Notes: generated from the sequence alone by a model not told the origin. 63,550 nt of DNA, filler included, from Neolecta irregularis DAH-3 (GCA_001929475.1; 5 parts of 5 records of this genome joined end to end with filler, not necessarily neighbours in it), one strand, 5' to 3'; counted from the first letter of the whole stretch, positions 7,852 to 58,416 are shown. Program-made: numbers and translations.

Positions 7852-8943
7852 ATGGCAGCCCGCAACAGAAATCGCCAGTCAATGGCCTCTGATATCAATG
7901 AAGAAAACGCACTGTGGACATCGACAATGCAGGAGCTTCGCCGGTTACCTGAATTATATTCTAGTGCTGGGAAAATAGCCCAGGAAGCAAACGATATTCA
8001 GCATAGCCTTGATCTCAGTATTTGGTCTCTCGATCTATCTCACTTATATAAAGTCATGGATTTGAATACTGTTCGAAAATTGGAAGACGTTTACTTGGAA
8101 GGAATTGACATTGCCAAAACTGAGCAAATGTATATTACACCCATAGTCTTTATCATATGCTGAAACCACAAGGATTTTAAACCAAGCACAAGAAAGTCTG
8201 GATATTCTCATTGCATTACGTCAAGCAACAGAGATGGGTACAGGCGCATTAGGTACATACATATTCTTCGGTTTATATTTAACAAATTTTATCAGAAATG
8301 AAGCGCAAGAAACGCAAAGCCGAGGAGACAGTAATTGATACCCCAGTCACAAAACACAAAAAACAGAGAAGGCATTTTCTTCTAAAGAACATAAATTAAT
8401 GTAGAAAGCTCATCGATTCCGGATACTATTATTGTAGGTTCACAAGTGGCTTACCGTCCAAAACACAAGGCTGCTGAAGGCGATTGGATTCAATGTAGAG
8501 TTTTACGATTATATGGAGAGGGTGTTAAACTAAGGTTTATTTCCATTCCCCAGTTTTTTTTGAGTTTGGTAGGTATGAAATTCAGGATATTGAGCCAGAT
8601 ATTGAGAATCCGGAAAAGTAAATGTCTTTCGAGATTGAAAAAATTAACGAAGGCCTAGAAAGTACAAAGCTACAGCGAATAATTGCATCTTGATTCCTCC
8701 TGAAGGTCAGCATCTTCCACTACTTCGTCCTGGGACTACTGTTCTTGCTCGCTACCCCGAGACTACTACTTTCTATCGGGCAGAGTTCATTGGGATGAAG
8801 GTTGCTTAACATTCTCTGTAAGACCTAACAAAGTTTAGAGAGATGGAGTTTCCTGTCGTTTGCGATTTGAAGGAGAAGAAGAGGCTGGCAAAGAGACTGA
8901 GGTCGAAAGACGTTTAGTAATTGAGGCCCCTACGCGAGGGTAA
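7852..8943 (+). CDS. SGF29: SAGA-associated factor 29 (tandem Tudor), 8 exons
   Basis: GSQVAYRP, DWIQCRV, RYEIQDIEP, VLARYPETTTFYRAE, LRFEGEEE..EVERRLV; includes GC-AG intron 8372-8408. Confidence 0.95.
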
Positions 8944-9277
8944 TTCAGTTGATTGGATATCTTTGGAGTTTGGGATATACTGGTCATTAGGTTTGTCATT
9001 ATGTACATTATATATACAGAGGTATTTCAACTCCCCTGTTCAATGGTAAGAAATGTTGTGAAGTGGAGCAGATTAAATTTGTTTGGTTCCTCTTGGCACT
9101 TTTAATAAGTGAAAGAATGAAAGCATAGTTCGAAATCAACTTTCCAAGGCAGATTGTGCCATTTTCTTTCCTATCATAGTGTATATATGAATTGAATCCA
9201 TGCATGAGTCAATTTTTAGTTTTTCATTTTTAATGGCGATTATATTTCTGTGAGGTCAAATCCAGACCTCAAATGCT

Positions 9278-9642
9278 ATGACTGACGATGGCAATGTCAA
9301 ATCTTCGTTTCCACCTGGAATTTCTTCGATCGAAGAATTGGAGAATGCAAGGGGAAAATTCGCCTTTGTTATTTTTAAACGGTCTGAGCCGCTCGAGGGA
9401 TATTTGTGGAATGTCGATCCCAGTTCGGGGAGCGTCCTTATATATCAAGTGAGGCTTTCCTGGATCATGTCATCTGAATAACGCCATAGAAGAAGGATGA
9501 TGAGGAAGATCGGAAGGCTCGGGTGGTGCTTTGTATGAACGACGCAGTTGCGAAGATCCAGATCGACCACGAAAGAAATACAGTCAGTCTCACAGAGATT
9601 GACAAGGCTTTGAATTGGACACCAGAAGGAAGATCAGGCTGA
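9278..9642 (+). CDS. Small Sm-like protein, probable Gemin6 (SMN complex), 2 exons
   Basis: Intron 9449-9489 joins LEGYLWNVDPSSGSVLIYQ to KARVVLCMNDAVAKIQID, resembling the Gemin6 GWVxTxDPVS...MGHAV pattern. Confidence 0.6.
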
Positions 9643-9759
9643 AGTCAGCCAAGGGCCTTACCATGTTGTCAAACAGTTCACATCCTGCTGGTTTGTGAAG
9701 ATTCCTTTCCTGATAAAGGAGCAAAATAATTCTCAACCTGATAGTTGAAAGATCAAACT

Positions 9760-54466: not shown

Positions 54467-56666
54467 ATGGCCGATGATAATTTGAGTCTAAACGAGTCAC
54501 CTATGCAACCGCAGACGCTTTTGAATCCCGCTGATAACAACCTACCCGCTCTCGATACACCTATGTCAGATATTGGTCCGAGTCCCCGTCCAGTTGCCGA
54601 GGATGTCCAGTCAAGTCAGCCAGCCTTGACCACAGAAATTCAACCGGAAGGCAATTCTTCTCTTGTAGCACCCCAGGTCAACGATGGTATGTCGGATACA
54701 CATGATGATCTATTCGATGAAGTGCCTGAGCGGTCCGATTCGGTTCTTACACCTGCTAATCCAGAAAATCAACCGGAAATGAAATCCGCGATATCGGCCT
54801 CCAAAGATCTCGACTCGTCAATACGTGGTCCGGAAATTCTTCCCCTGTCTGCCATCGCTACCAATGGATCTGCTAGCAATTCATCCCCACAAGTTTTATC
54901 TCAAGAAAACAGTACTCCTTCAACGCCTTCTTTCAAGCCATCTCATGATCGCCCTCATTCTTATACCGATCCTCCGCCCTCAAAGCGGGTACGGATGGAA
55001 GAGGCATCCGTTGGAACATCTAAAGTATTGACACGCGAACAGAGCAAATACTGCACAGCCGTTCTTCGTCAGCTCAAGAAAAATCGAGATGCAGGCCCAT
55101 TTTTACATCCTGTCGACTCTGTCAAATTGAATATCCCCACATATCTTCAAGTTGTAAAGAATCCTATGGATCTTGGCACTATACAAAAGAAACTTGATTC
55201 TGGGCAATATGTTAGCATGCATGAGTTCAAGCATGACTTGAAATTGATTGTCGAAAATTCGCGGATGTTTAATGGACCAGACCATAAAGTGACACAAATG
55301 GCTATGTCACTTGAATCAACTTTTGAGAAACAAATGCAGAAAATGCCAGCTGAACCTGTGTGATCTTTGATATTGAATGTAGACTAATGATCCAGATTGT
55401 GAAAGAAGACACACGACCTGTTTCTCTCCCTCCTCCTAAAAAGTCTGCTAAGAAGAAAAAACCTCCAGTAGCGCCCGCCCCTGCTGCAAAACCGCCGTCG
55501 AATATTCGTCGGGAATCTGCTGACCGGCCGCGACGTGAAGTTCATCCACCTCCCTCGCGTGATTTACCCTATAATGATGTCAAGCCTCGCCGCAAGAAAT
55601 ATGTTAATCAGATGAAGTTTTGTGGGCAGGTTTTGAGAGAGCTTAACAAGAAGGTGCACGAGGCATATGCTTATCCTTTCTACATCCCTGTTGGTAAGTT
55701 TTGTATTATTTTCCTTTTTTGCTTATAAAAAGATCCGGTGGCCTTGAATATTCCCGAATACCACAAGGTTGTAAAACATCCGATGGATCTCACGACCATC
55801 CAAAACAAGTTAAACAATAGTCATTACGAAACTCCCGAAGAACTTGAATCAGATATTCGCCTGATGTTCCGCAATTGCTATAGTTTTAATCCGGTCGGAA
55901 CACCTGTTTTTAATATGGGGAAACGCTTGGAAGCCGTGTTTGAGAAAAAATGGCAAGAAATGCCTGAAGAACAGCCTATGTCTTATAGCCCTCATGGCGA
56001 GTCTGATGAGTCGGACGCTGCAAATGATGAATCAATCGTTATGCTTGAAAGACAACTCTCTCTTATGAAGGATCAGATAAGTATGATGAAAGATAAAAAA
56101 CGCCGAGATAAAGACCTGCGCCGCATGTCGAAGCCTCAGTCGAAAGGAAGCTCAAAGAAGGCGGACAAGAAGAGCAAATCGGAACGTTCAAATTTCGTGT
56201 CCTTTGACCAAAAGAAGGAGCTTTCCGAGAAAATCAATAATATTACCGAATCAAAACTACAAGGGGTGATCCGCTTGATTCAGGAGGGCATGCCCCATCT
56301 GAAATCGGTATGATGTTATGCTCGTGGTAGCGCTGACATTCAGGCAGACAGCGATGAGATTGAACTGGATCTGGATGCACTGACGCCAGACACGTTGTTC
56401 AAGCTGTACCACTTTGTGTGCCATGACGCCCCACAGCCCAAGATCAAGCCGGCACAACCTATGAACCCGAAGAAGAGTCGCCAGGTTCTCTCTGAGGCTG
56501 AGCAGGCGCGGCGCATCTCGACGATAGAAGAGCAGCTGCAGAAATTCCAGGGTGGCGAAGGTTTGTTGCCTGGTGGTGCTACTACTGACCAGCAGGGTTT
56601 GGCGCTGCCGCAGAGGAGTCTGACAGCGAGAGTGGGTCGGAATCGTCGAGCGAGGAGTCTGACTAG
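54467..56666 (+). CDS. BDF1: BET double-bromodomain protein Bdf1, 5 exons
   Basis: Two bromodomains (PFLHPVD..PMDL; PFYIPVD..PMDL), ET domain ([22 protein letters not shown]), acidic SEED-like tail. Confidence 0.96.
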
Positions 56667-56797
56667 GGAGTGTCATAGGGAAATGGGTGTACTACCACTT
56701 GCGTGCTGTATTGGCGTTCTTGTATCTGTATCGTATCGTATCTTATGGTGTTGTAACTTGGTGCTGCGACTGCCACTTGCCTTGTTCACTCACCACC

Positions 56798-58416
56798 ATG
56801 GTTCATTTGACCCAGGCCAAAGGTTTACATACCCCCATGCCCGTTGTTGCTCAACCACAAGGAATCACCAGTGCATCTACCAGCAGCAGCAGAGAAAACA
56901 GAGTTGCCGCCCATTCCCACATTCGCGGCCTGCAAACCGGCTTTATCGGTCAGGATGATGCTCGAGAGGCACGTTTTTTTTCTCCCGCTCATGCTCATCC
57001 GCTCCAGGCCTGCAGCATCGTCGTCGATATCATAAAATCAAAGAAAATGGCCGGAAGAGCCCTTCTTTTTGCAGGCGGCCCAGGGACTGGAAAGACCGCC
57101 CTTGCCCTTGCTATCGCGCAGGAGCTTGGTCCAAAAGTCCCATTCTGCCCCATCGTAGGAAGTGAAGTCTACTCTGCAGAGATAAAAAAGACAGAGGTTC
57201 TGATGGAGAATTTTCGCAGAGCAATCGGTATCCCTTTCTCATTTCAAACCTGATCACAGGCCTGCGGGTCAAGGAAACGAAAGAAGTCTACGAAGGCGAA
57301 GTTGTCAATATGCAAGTCGAGGGTTTGATGTTTGCGCGAGGCTTTTACTTATCTGCTTAGAAGCTGACAGTCCTCTGGGCGGCTATGGAAAGACAATCGC
57401 TCATGTTATAATCGACCTGAAAACTTTTAAAGGAACAAAACAGCTCAAACTGGACCCAAGCATCTACGAGAGTATCCAGAAAGAGAAGGTGACAGTGGGC
57501 GATGTGATATACTTGGAAGCAAACACTGGTGCAGTCAAGGTTTGCTATCATCTGTCGAATCCATCTGATCCTCAGAGAGTCGGCCGGTCGGATGCCTATG
57601 CAACCGAGTTCGACCTGGAAGCCGAAGAATACGTGCCTCTACCCAAAGGTGAGGTCCACAAAAAGAAGGAAATTATACAAGATGTTACACTACATGATCT
57701 GGATACAGCAAATGCTCGGCCTCAGGTATATATACTCTGTAATTTCGACTGAGCTTTGTTAGGGTGGGCAAGATATCATGTCCATGATGAGTCAGCTTAT
57801 GAAAAACAAAAAAACCGAAATAACAGATAAGCTGCGACAAGAGATCAACAAGGTTGTGAATAAATATATCGACCAAGGCGTCGCAGAGCTCATTCCTGGC
57901 GTCCTCTTCATTGATGAGGTCCATATGCTTGATCTCGAATGCTTTACATATCTCAACAGGGCCTTGGAATTGACGATCTCGCCAATAGTCATCTTTGCTA
58001 CAAATAGAGGGTTATGCACCGTTAGGTTTGACAATCTAGTTATGGGGCAAAATTAACATAAAAGAGGTACCGACGACATCGTTGCGCCCCATGGAATTCC
58101 CTTAGATTTACTTGATCGATTACTCATCGTTCGGACGTTACCGTATACCGAAGAAGAAATTAAGACAATCATTCAGCTTCGTGCAAAAACCGAAGGGTTA
58201 TTAATCACAGATGCTGCTCTTAATCGTCTAGCCTCACAAGGCAACCAGGCGAGTTTACGATATGCCTTGCAGTTACTGACACCTGCGAGCATTCTGGGGC
58301 GTATTCAAGGACGTAACGAGATTGATATTCAAGACATCGGAGAATCTAACGCTCTTTTCTTGGATGCAAAACGTAGTGGAAGACTTGTACAAGAGAGCAG
58401 TGAGTTTATTATCTAG
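56798..58416 (+). CDS. RVB1: RuvB-like AAA+ helicase 1, 8 exons
   Basis: [58 protein letters not shown] intron 56969-57007. Confidence 0.97.

What the first reader, a model, noticed from the sequence alone, without database searches (positions are those of the whole stretch)
8372..57007. High rate of GC-AG introns lacking the usual compensating consensus
Seen GC donors supported by frame or conserved motifs: SGF29 8372 (GCATTT), PX gene 12315 (GCATTT), MFS 15659 (GCAACT), CCCH 21605 (GCATGT), EXO1 23689 (GCATGC), FIG1-like 26303 (GCAAGT), TBCC 29165 (GCACCT), VPS74 36934 (GCACCA), RING 42199 (GCATCT), RPB3 45187 (GCAAGA), RVB1 56969 (GCACGT). That is 11 of roughly 140 introns by my manual count (about 8%). 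GC-AG is usually around 1% and normally carries a strong AG|GCAAGT context. Here only +3A is constant.
Basis: partly seen in the sequence, partly recalled or inferred. Interest (0 to 1): 0.72.

Follow-up and report, generated by a model that had tools for sequence, protein, structure and literature searches.

The report
Many GC-AG introns in Neolecta genes
In this stretch of a Neolecta fungal genome about one intron in fifteen to twenty starts with GC instead of the usual GT, several times the normal fungal rate, and the public gene models checked here miss them.

Summary
All 11 GC hexamers sit at the stated coordinates. Annotated Neolecta irregularis DAH-3 proteins map onto the window at 100%.

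Support by site:
- Eight GC-AG introns are placed to the residue by homology or a motif: PX, TBCC, VPS74, RPB3, EXO1, CCCH, RING, RVB1.
- Two are probable: SGF29 and MFS.
- FIG1 is undecided, because a GT donor 6 nt upstream reaches the same acceptor.

My gene finder gives about 140-170 introns in the window. That puts GC-AG at roughly 5-8%, against about 1% reported for fungi. P(8 or more of 150-180 at 1-1.3%) is 0.003 or less.

The GC introns have the normal local build: 33-39 nt, with a YTNAY branch site 7-11 nt before the AG.

The "no compensating consensus" reading is not upheld. GC donors match the U1-complementary consensus better than GT donors here (4.1 against 2.8 of 7 flanking positions, p = 0.0009). 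-1G and +3A are enriched and the branch sites score higher.

The public annotation has no GC donor at any of the 3 loci checked.

No RNA run and no whole genome were available, so splicing itself and the genome-wide rate remain inferred. This is a known kind of intron at an unusual, apparently unreported frequency.

The parts
8372..8408 (+). SGF29 GC-AG intron, 37 nt, phase 2, donor GCATTT, branch TTAAT (probable)
   Evidence: The frame needs an intron here, because the upstream frame stops at 8393-8395. Chain 3mp1_A aligns to ORF residues 11-46, so coding has begun by 8425. That excludes the only GT path (8331->8469) and acceptor 8437. Signal score is 13.4 bits, the 58th percentile of GT introns.
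12278..12315 (-). PX-protein (DUF3818) GC-AG intron, 38 nt, phase 1, donor GCATTT, branch CTGAC
   Evidence: Pfam PF12825: the upstream ORF ends at profile 283 on the last exon residue, and the downstream exon starts at 285, with the split codon between them. Signal score is 19.8 bits against 7.1 for the best GT alternative.
15623..15659 (-). MFS sugar-transporter GC-AG intron, 37 nt, phase 1, donor GCAACT, branch CTGAC (probable)
   Evidence: The PF00083 match ends exactly at the donor (residue 99, profile 228) and resumes at profile 244. The GT alternative (15695, GTCTCG, 73 nt) scores 6.6 against 16.5 bits. The in-window paralogue is too divergent to decide.
21605..21640 (+). CCCH zinc-finger gene GC-AG intron, 36 nt, phase 1, donor GCATGT, branch CTGAC
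   Evidence: The main frame has no ATG before the first finger, so an upstream ATG exon is needed (-type view, 52). Homologues carry K-N-[TL]-S-H before VPCKFF: N in 101, S in 95 and H in 126 of 135. The GC model scores higher in 122 of 149, the GT model (21609->21647) in 4, and 23 are equal. Signals are 17.4 against 8.1 bits.
23689..23726 (+). EXO1 GC-AG intron, 38 nt, phase 0, donor GCATGC, branch CTGAT
   Evidence: Human EXO1 135|136 by extrapolation. The GC model scores higher in 99 of 102 homologues of 400 aa or more. The GT model (23699->23739) scores higher in 2, one of which is the public annotation of this same gene. Signals are 18.1 against 8.1 bits.
26303..26338 (+). FIG1-like candidate GC-AG intron, 36 nt (or 33 nt to 26335), donor GCAAGT, branch CTTAC (undecided)
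   Evidence: The stretch is in frame and free of stops, so the frame does not require an intron. The public model removes 26297-26338 using donor GTTCGG. The Pfam Fig1 hit is lost if the GT donor at 26267 is used. Signals are 15.2 (GC) against 12.1 and 10.1 (GT).
29133..29165 (-). TBCC GC-AG intron, 33 nt, phase 0, donor GCACCT, branch CTGAT
   Evidence: PF07986: the upstream exon ends at profile 58 on its last residue, and the downstream exon starts at 59 on its first. There is an in-frame TAA if the intron is retained. The GT alternative (29210, 78 nt) scores 4.2 against 13.0 bits.
36899..36934 (-). VPS74/GOLPH3 GC-AG intron, 36 nt, phase 0, donor GCACCA, branch TTGAC
   Evidence: Solved chains abut exactly: 2zih_A 84|85, 4tu3_A 82|83, 9qpq_A 75|76, 3kn1_A 26|27. 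There is an in-frame TAG if the intron is retained. None of the 11 in-frame alternatives uses GT.
42199..42233 (+). RING-finger gene GC-AG intron, 35 nt, phase 2, donor GCATCT, branch CTCAC
   Evidence: The split codon TG|C supplies the last Cys of the RING closing pair (C-P-L-C), and read-through gives C-P-L-W. zf-RING_2 profile 25-42 ends at the last exon residue, and profile 2-23 lies in the preceding exon.
45187..45220 (+). RPB3 GC-AG intron, 34 nt, phase 0, donor GCAAGA, branch CTCAT
   Evidence: Solved chains abut exactly: 5fmf_C 159|160 and 3h0g_C 162|163. Signal score is 15.8 bits, the 86th percentile.
56969..57007 (+). RVB1 GC-AG intron, 39 nt, phase 0, in frame and stop-free, donor GCACGT, branch CTCAT
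   Evidence: The downstream exon starts at TIP49 profile 35 on its first residue. The spliced model aligns to P0124 (94% identical) over 452 columns with 0 gaps, while the retained model needs a 13-column gap. The spliced model scores higher in 77 of 78 homologues.

Best explanation
These are genuine U2-type GC-AG spliceosomal introns in nuclear genes of Neolecta irregularis, or an identical genome.

They share the build of the local GT-AG introns. They are ultra-short (33-39 nt; the local median is 37) and carry a YTNAY branch site 7-11 nt before the 3' AG. The only difference is C instead of T at +2.

Removing them restores conserved protein sequence.

In this window they make up roughly 5-8% of introns, several times the roughly 1% typical of fungi.

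Inferred mechanism:
- Local 5' splice sites are already minimal (G-T-A and little else).
- The introns are short enough to be recognised as whole units, with the branch site close by.
- A T-to-C change at +2 therefore costs little, provided the flanks (-1G, +3A, +6T) and the branch site are somewhat better than average.
- Such changes then persist.

The public gene models appear to have been built without GC donors and mis-draw these genes.
For: Shown:
- All 11 hexamers are present.
- Eight junctions are fixed to the residue by Pfam profile abutment, solved-structure chains, homologue scoring or the RING closing Cys pair.
- For the 7 of those sites that could test, the best in-frame GT alternative scores 3-12 bits lower on intron signals, or none exists. 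No GT alternative can restore the RING Cys pair.
- All 11 score at the 51st-99th percentile of 140 GT introns, under a signal model trained on GT introns only.
- With any second donor dinucleotide allowed, my gene finder placed most of its extra introns at six of these loci. Those loci therefore need an intron and have no usable GT.
- In an even-handed Pfam-abutment census of predicted exon pairs, 17 GT and 2 GC introns passed, plus 1 borderline GC. P(>=2 of 19 at 1%) = 0.015.
- For the whole window, P(>=8 of 150-180 at 1-1.3%) <= 0.0027.
- P0124, 94% identical, lies on a 1521-nt contig. That contig is too short for 1371 nt of coding sequence plus 221 nt of introns, and the protein lacks the 13 residues.
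- Fungal baseline: GT-AG 98.7% (PMC7072748, section 3.1 read); about 1% GC-AG in three fungi (PMC4084796, passage).

Inferred: the splicing itself, the tolerance mechanism and the genome-wide rate.
Against: - There is no RNA evidence from this organism, because no RNA run was available.
- P0124 is only inferred to be a transcript, and it comes from a relative.
- FIG1 has a workable GT donor 6 nt upstream, and its stretch is also open if read through.
- MFS and SGF29 junctions lie in poorly conserved linkers.
- The spliced RVB1 lacks an 11-residue loop that human, yeast and Chaetomium chains have. The Pfam profile length fits the read-through form better (36 against 34 positions).
- A scan on signals alone does not show GC-start candidates above decoy dinucleotides.
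- The denominator comes from a home-made gene finder with known false positives, for example in the kinesin and TBCC ORFs.
- One 63.5-kb window, perhaps flagged because it was extreme, cannot fix the genome-wide rate.
Confidence: 0.82

Rival explanations
1. The introns are real, but the window is a local extreme. Genome-wide GC-AG in this fungus would be near the ordinary 1-2%, and the window drew attention because it happened to hold many.
For: Only one window of 63.5 kb was examined. No whole genome is held, and no other window of this genome has notes. A first-stage flag selects for extremes. At a true rate of 2%, 8-9 of 150 is rare, but not impossible in one of about 200 windows.
Against: The 8-10 supported cases lie in unrelated genes spread over 48 kb. 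P(>=8 of 150) is 0.00015-0.00084 at 1-1.3%. All three public gene models checked avoid GC donors, so a high rate could have gone unseen.
Confidence: 0.2
2. The boundaries are mis-drawn. The true donors are nearby GT sites, or there is no intron, as in the public annotation: EXO1 GT 23699, FIG1 GT 26297, RVB1 read-through.
For: The public proteins P0001, P0242 and P0241 use exactly these solutions and map 100% to the window. GT alternatives exist for EXO1, CCCH, MFS, TBCC, PX and FIG1. The RVB1 and FIG1 stretches are in frame and stop-free.
Against: - Homologues reject the GT or retained forms: EXO1 2 of 102, CCCH 4 of 149, RVB1 1 of 78.
- TBCC, PX, VPS74 and RPB3 abut to the residue only with the GC donor.
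- The GT alternatives have odd donors (GTC...) or double length (73-78 nt), and score 3-12 bits lower.
- Augustus is reported not to recognise GC-AG introns (PMC5677156, passage).
Confidence: 0.05
3. The in-frame, stop-free cases (RVB1 39 nt, FIG1 36 nt) are coding insertions or optionally retained introns, not constitutive introns.
For: Neither interrupts the frame. The read-through RVB1 has the same N-terminal length as the Pfam profile and the solved chains. A survey reports that fungal GC-AG introns are more often 3n and stop-free than GT-AG ones: 13.3% against 9.2% (PMC7072748, table passage).
Against: RVB1: removal makes the conserved G-x-[VI]-G-Q-x-x-A-R-E-A motif contiguous with the helix before Walker A. 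The 94%-identical P0124 lacks the 13 residues, and 77 of 78 homologues prefer the spliced form. FIG1: the public model also removes an intron here.
Confidence: 0.1
4. Assembly or sequencing errors turned T into C at +2.
For: None was found.
Against: It would need 8-11 independent errors, each exactly at +2 of an intron. The annotated proteins map at 100% identity to the flanking exons.
Confidence: 0.01

Closest known systems
U2-type GC-AG introns of fungi (about 1% of introns)
   Same: GC at +1/+2 and AG at the 3' end. U2-type branch site. ORF and homology are restored on removal. The flanking donor positions are stronger than in GT introns.
   Different: The frequency here is about 5-8% in the window, against 98.7% GT-AG on average in fungi (PMC7072748, section 3.1 read) and about 1% GC-AG in three fungi (PMC4084796, passage). 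The introns are only 33-39 nt. There is no full AG|GCAAGT context.
GC-AG-rich genomes: Emiliania huxleyi (56% of 241 mapped junctions; PMC4028052, passages), pelagophytes (about 14-17%) and Cyanidioschyzon merolae (4%) (bioRxiv 10.1101/2024.10.30.620910, passage)
   Same: A lineage-wide rise in GC donor use with the canonical AG kept. Ab initio gene models are mis-predicted because predictors favour GT.
   Different: Those authors link the rise to high genomic G+C. This window is 44% G+C. The organism is a fungus and the rate is lower.
Mammalian GC-AG 5' splice sites with strong AG|GCAAGT compensation (recalled from general knowledge; PMC1557818 seen only as a search listing and abstract)
   Same: A C at +2 is offset by better matches elsewhere.
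   Different: Compensation here is partial, with a mean of 4.1 of 7 flanking matches. It is measured against a much weaker GT norm of 2.6-2.8 of 7.
U12-type (minor) introns
   Same: They are also non-standard introns found at low frequency.
   Different: None of the 11 donors carries the ATCCTT box. The branch sites are ordinary YTNAY, and the termini are GC-AG, not AT-AC.

Membership tests
U2-type GC-AG spliceosomal intron | GC at intron positions +1/+2 and AG at the 3' end | tested here: met
   11 of 11. Sliding the boundaries gives no other AG-ending solution at the residue-exact sites (reasoned).
U2-type GC-AG spliceosomal intron | Removal restores an open frame and contiguous homology to orthologues | tested here: met
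   Residue-exact at 8 of 11. Probable at 2. Undecided at 1, FIG1.
U2-type GC-AG spliceosomal intron | U2-type branch site and spacing like the local GT-AG introns | tested here: met
   YTNAY lies 7-11 nt before the exon in 11 of 11. Lengths are 33-39 nt against a local median of 37. Signal scores fall at the 51st-99th percentile of 140 GT introns.
U2-type GC-AG spliceosomal intron | Actually excised from the transcript | not testable with these tools
   No RNA run was available. The only indirect evidence is P0124, a 94%-identical protein on a contig too short to hold the introns, which lacks the RVB1 stretch.
U2-type GC-AG spliceosomal intron | Flanking donor positions stronger than in GT introns (compensation) | tested here: met
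   4.09 against 2.80 matches of 7 (p = 0.0009), and against 2.61 in 18 validated GT introns (p = 0.0035). -1G 9 of 11, +3A 11 of 11. The compensation is partial and does not reach the full AG|GCAAGT.
U12-type (minor) intron | 5' box [AG]TATCCTT and a TCCTTAAC-like branch site | tested here: not met
   The donor hexamers are GCATTT (twice), GCAACT, GCATGT, GCATGC, GCAAGT, GCACCT, GCACCA, GCATCT, GCAAGA and GCACGT. The branch sites are CTGAC, CTGAT, CTCAC, CTCAT, CTTAC, TTGAC and TTAAT.
Lineage with genome-wide elevated GC-AG use | GC-AG fraction well above 1-2% across the whole genome | not testable with these tools
   No genome is held and no RNA run was available. The window alone gives about 5-8%.

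The most novel reading that the evidence does not exclude
The Neolecta spliceosome discriminates poorly between T and C at +2 across the whole genome.

Some 5-8% of its ultra-short introns would then be GC-AG. That would be the highest rate known for an intron-rich fungus, and it would not be driven by G+C content.

The public proteome, built without GC donors, would mis-draw most of the genes that hold such an intron, either with an alternative GT donor or by reading the intron through as coding sequence. The 3 loci checked here show both errors.

The lineage would become a natural test case for how minimal 5' splice sites and intron definition relax the +2 requirement.
Probability: 0.55. Interest if true: 0.6.

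Novelty: new member of a known kind. Interest (0 to 1): 0.5.

Why it matters
1. Annotation. At all 3 loci where I could see the public Neolecta irregularis model, the GC intron is mis-drawn.
- EXO1 has 5 residues replaced by 4 others.
- RVB1 carries 13 spurious residues, and its model is also fused to the neighbouring bromodomain gene.
- FIG1 may lack 2 residues.
Comparative studies that take intron positions or proteins from that annotation inherit these errors.

2. Splicing biology. Introns here have a median length of 37 nt and donors of little more than G-T-A. About 6% GC donors at 44% G+C suggests that the +2 requirement loosens when recognition rests on intron length and the branch site. 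RNA-seq and snRNA comparison could test that.

3. Method. It shows that GC-aware prediction is needed for early-diverging Ascomycota.

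Tried and rejected
- Whole genome: none is held for this window.
- Earlier findings: nothing for this genome or for these words.
- Decoy-dinucleotide gene finding: GC gave 8 introns. The decoys gave GA 10, GG 4, AT 5, CT 3, TT 5 and AC 5. It does not separate GC from decoys by count. It only shows that six of the loci need an intron and lack a usable GT.
- Signal-only scan of all 16 start dinucleotides: GC candidates (26 at 14 bits or more) are not above the decoys (13-43). The test is uninformative, because the branch, acceptor and length terms dominate and shifted copies of true introns score well.
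- Gene finder with GC unpenalised: 40 GC introns, mostly spurious (wrong strand, or inside Pfam-contiguous ORFs). It yielded no convincing twelfth case. 49792->49755 and 20609->20644 were looked at, and the latter puts the downstream exon in the wrong frame.
- MFS paralogue comparison: scores were 398 against 399, too divergent to decide.
- First CCCH scoring was flawed because the two peptides had unequal ends. It was redone with a common end.
- Metagenome scan for the contig of P0124: the best locus is only 76% identical, so the contig was not retrieved. Loci L001-L080 were not used.
- Rfam and tRNA scans of the window: nothing found, so no snRNA gene to inspect.
- Searches (translation contained a stop; a 19-residue piece) were input slips. 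They were re-sent as separate ORFs and without the short piece.
- Literature: 'Neolecta' with 'GC-AG' gave 0 papers. 'GC-AG' with 'Taphrinomycotina' gave 3 unrelated papers. The Neolecta genome paper PMC5309816 has 0 occurrences of intron, splice, GC-AG, RNA-seq or gene model in its main text, and its supplements were not seen.

Full report
**What the window is**

Three annotated proteins of Neolecta irregularis DAH-3 map onto the window in blocks of 100% identity (P0241, P0001, P0242). The window is therefore that genome or an identical one. No whole genome is held and no RNA run was available. Everything below rests on the window, on homology and on the literature.

**Local intron style**

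Classical donor hexamers such as GTAAGT are not enriched. I wrote a small Viterbi gene finder using codon log-odds, donor, branch and acceptor matrices and a length prior, and trained it on the window.

- The strict first pass gave 58 introns.
- After training it gave 179 with GT only.
- With GT+GC it gave 172.
- After I dropped four regions where it chose the wrong strand, 140 GT introns of 80 nt or less remain.

Their median length is 37 nt (IQR 36-40). The donor is G-T-A (A at +3 in 66%) with a weak T-G-T after it, and -1G occurs in 49%. The branch site is YTNAY, mostly CTGAY, about 7-12 nt before the AG. The finder has false positives, for example inside the kinesin and TBCC ORFs, which Pfam matches without a break.

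**The 11 sites**

All 11 hexamers are at the stated coordinates. Four read on the minus strand. Each pairs with an AG 33-39 nt downstream.

Junction tests that use only unbroken window references:
- TBCC: the upstream ORF matches PF07986 up to profile 58 on the last exon residue. The next exon starts at 59 on its first residue.
- PX protein: PF12825 reads 283, then the split codon, then 285.
- VPS74: the two exons abut in four solved chains, at 84|85, 82|83, 75|76 and 26|27. Retention would give a stop.
- RPB3: 159|160 in yeast and 162|163 in S. pombe chains.
- RING gene: the split codon supplies the last Cys of the closing C-P-L-C. Read-through gives Trp instead.

Tests with fetched homologues, where competing spliced models were built and scored inside scripts:
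- EXO1: the GC model beats the GT alternative (23699->23739) in 99 of 102 homologues of 400 aa or more. GT wins in 2, one being the public annotation of this very gene, and 1 is equal.
- CCCH: homologues carry K-N-[TL]-S-H before the first finger. The GC splice rebuilds N-T-S-H. It wins in 122 of 149, GT 21609->21647 wins in 4, and 23 are equal. An earlier comparison was flawed and is discarded.
- RVB1: the 39 nt are in frame and stop-free, so the frame is silent. The next exon nonetheless starts at TIP49 profile 35 on its first residue. The spliced form aligns to P0124 (426 of 452 identical) with no gap, while the retained form needs a 13-column gap. The spliced form wins in 77 of 78 full-length homologues.
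- P0124 lies on a 1521-nt contig. That is too short for 1371 coding nt plus the 221 nt of introns this gene has here, so it is probably a transcript of a close relative.

A point against the RVB1 intron: the spliced protein lacks an 11-residue loop present in the human, yeast and Chaetomium chains, and the read-through length fits the Pfam profile better. P0124 lacks the same loop, so the loss is real in this lineage.

The weaker sites:
- SGF29: the upstream frame stops at 8393-8395. A yeast Sgf29 chain aligns from ORF residue 11, so coding has begun by 8425. This removes the only GT path (8331->8469) and acceptor 8437. Of typical length, that leaves GC 8372->8408 alone. I rate it probable.
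- MFS: the Sugar_tr match ends exactly at the donor. The GT alternative is 73 nt long with a GTC donor. The paralogue cannot decide. I rate it probable.
- FIG1: GT 26297 (GTTCGG, used by the public model) or GC 26303 (GCAAGT), both running to 26338. Read-through is also open. The Fig1 Pfam hit is lost with GT 26267. Undecided.

**Signals**

The signal model was trained on GT introns only. Under it the 11 GC introns score 13.0-19.8 bits without the +1/+2 term, which is the 51st-99th percentile of the 140 GT introns. The best in-frame GT alternatives score 4-12 bits. SGF29 and RPB3 returned no candidates under that script's 90-nt upstream-frame filter, and for the same reason the RING list omitted the proposed GC intron.

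Two controls were uninformative, and I say so:
- Allowing a decoy dinucleotide instead of GC gave similar counts. The decoys sat mostly at the same six loci, which shows only that these loci need an intron and have no usable GT.
- A signal-only scan does not lift GC above the decoys.

**Rate**

The Pfam-abutment census used one rule. Adjacent predicted exons had to hit the same family, and the profile gap and the unaligned residues had to agree within 3.

- 17 GT introns passed: M17, RRP4, SGF29, MFS1 x2, MFS2 x2, EXO1, GH18 x2, COX11, BET and RVB1 x5.
- 2 GC introns passed (PX, TBCC), and MFS was borderline.
- About eight further exon-pair tests failed the rule: VPS74 GT 36651, GH18 40234, RPB3 45078, ATE1 x2, SGF29 8533-8659, PX 12768/12614 and UCH.
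- That is 2 of 19 (about 10%), with P = 0.015 at a 1% rate.

For the whole window, 8-10 supported GC introns among roughly 140-170 introns give about 5-7%. The extremes are 6 of 180 (3%) and 11 of 140 (8%). P(>=8 of 150-180) at 1.0-1.3% is 0.00015-0.0027.

Baselines from the literature: GT-AG averages 98.7% over 2.3 million fungal splice sites (PMC7072748, section 3.1 read). GC-AG is about 1% in three fungi with RNA-informed models (PMC4084796, passage).

**Compensation**

- -1G: 9 of 11 against 68 of 140 (p = 0.033).
- +3A: 11 of 11 against 93 of 140 (p = 0.014).
- +6T: 8 of 11 against 57 of 140 (p = 0.04).
- +4T and +5G show no difference.
- Matches to CAG|GTAAGT at the seven flanking positions: 4.09 against 2.80 (p = 0.0009).
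- Against the 18 homology-validated GT introns: 4.09 against 2.61 (p = 0.0035). The 8 best-supported GC introns give 4.0 (p = 0.012).
- Branch score: 8.29 against 7.31 bits (p = 0.015).

GC donors are thus better than the local average, though far from AG|GCAAGT.

**How it most likely works**

Shown: the sequence architecture and the restoration of conserved proteins.

Inferred: these are ordinary U2-type introns. Recognition here leans on intron length and on a branch site close to the 3' end, with minimal pairing at the 5' site. A T-to-C change at +2 is then tolerated when -1, +3, +6 and the branch site are good, and it can persist. There is no ATCCTT box, so they are not U12-type. G+C content does not explain the rate, since the window is 44% G+C. 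Authors link the known GC-AG-rich algae to high G+C: E. huxleyi 56% of 241 junctions (PMC4028052, passages), and pelagophytes about 14-17% and C. merolae 4% (bioRxiv 10.1101/2024.10.30.620910, passage).

**Public annotation**

None of the 3 loci I could inspect has a GC donor in the public model.

- EXO1 uses GT 23699->23739.
- RVB1 keeps the 39 nt as coding, and its model is also fused with the upstream bromodomain gene into a 1194-residue protein.
- FIG1 uses GT 26297.

Augustus is reported not to recognise GC-AG introns (PMC5677156, passage). Which predictor was used for Neolecta I could not see.

**Novelty**

GC-AG introns are a known kind, and lineages rich in them are known. I found no report for Neolecta. 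'Neolecta' with 'GC-AG' returned 0 papers. 'GC-AG' with 'Taphrinomycotina' returned 3 unrelated papers. The genome paper's main text never mentions introns or splicing, and its supplements were not seen.

The genome-wide rate is untested.

Noticed in passing
54467-58413 (+): The public protein OLL25352.1 (P0241, 1194 aa) fuses the BET-bromodomain gene and RVB1 into one model. It reads through the intergenic stretch 56672-56797 as coding sequence. The bromodomain ORF has its own stop at about 56664-56666, and RVB1 has an ATG at 56798.
   Followed up: partly
whole window: Introns are extremely short (median 37 nt, IQR 36-40) with a minimal G-T-A donor. A distinct subclass has G|GTTTG donors, for example 33092, 56561, 57323, 57540 and 58026. 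Three of these are validated by TIP49 profile abutment.
   Followed up: partly
20553-20644 (+), HOP2/TBPIP gene: The intron after the exon ending ...K-Q-D is unresolved. A GTCATC donor at 20601 (44 nt) keeps the frame but deletes five residues that look homologous. The GTAATA donor at 20617 (28 nt) shifts the frame. No GT/GC-AG solution keeps both.
   Followed up: partly
17671-18975 (-), second MFS gene: The stretch is one unbroken 435-codon ORF. Even so, Pfam profile arithmetic (118 -> 141 across a 21-residue piece) fits two introns (18639-18602 and 18537-18501) flanking a 21-codon exon, exactly as in the paralogue at 15918-16069. An open ORF here hides introns.
   Followed up: partly
56880-56968 (+), RVB1 N-terminus: RVB1 here, and in the 94%-identical P0124, lacks an 11-residue loop. 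In the human, yeast and Chaetomium chains this loop lies between the G-L motif and the G-x-V-G-Q motif.
   Followed up: partly
12726-12768 (-), PX gene: This intron has an odd GTCTCC donor and a weak branch site. The Pfam arithmetic across it is off by 5 positions, so the boundary may be mis-drawn.
   Followed up: no
49755-49815 (-), GTPase gene 5' end: Two competing first introns share acceptor 49755: GT 49815 (61 nt) and GC 49792 (GCATGC, 38 nt, the typical length). This could be a twelfth GC donor. No homology is available to decide.
   Followed up: no
19696-19795, 41339-41438, 43158-43257, 61468-61567; also 19972-19981 and 21347-21356: There are paired 44-N runs 12 bases apart and two 10-N runs. 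One run (41339-41438) lies in the RING gene region and one (43158-43257) at the start of the Gpr1/Fun34 gene, so the gene models there are incomplete.
   Followed up: no
41400-42600 and 21357-22700: These are G+C-rich stretches (49-51%) with long open frames on both strands. The gene finder chose the antisense strand in both, which is why it did not recover the CCCH and RING GC introns.
   Followed up: partly
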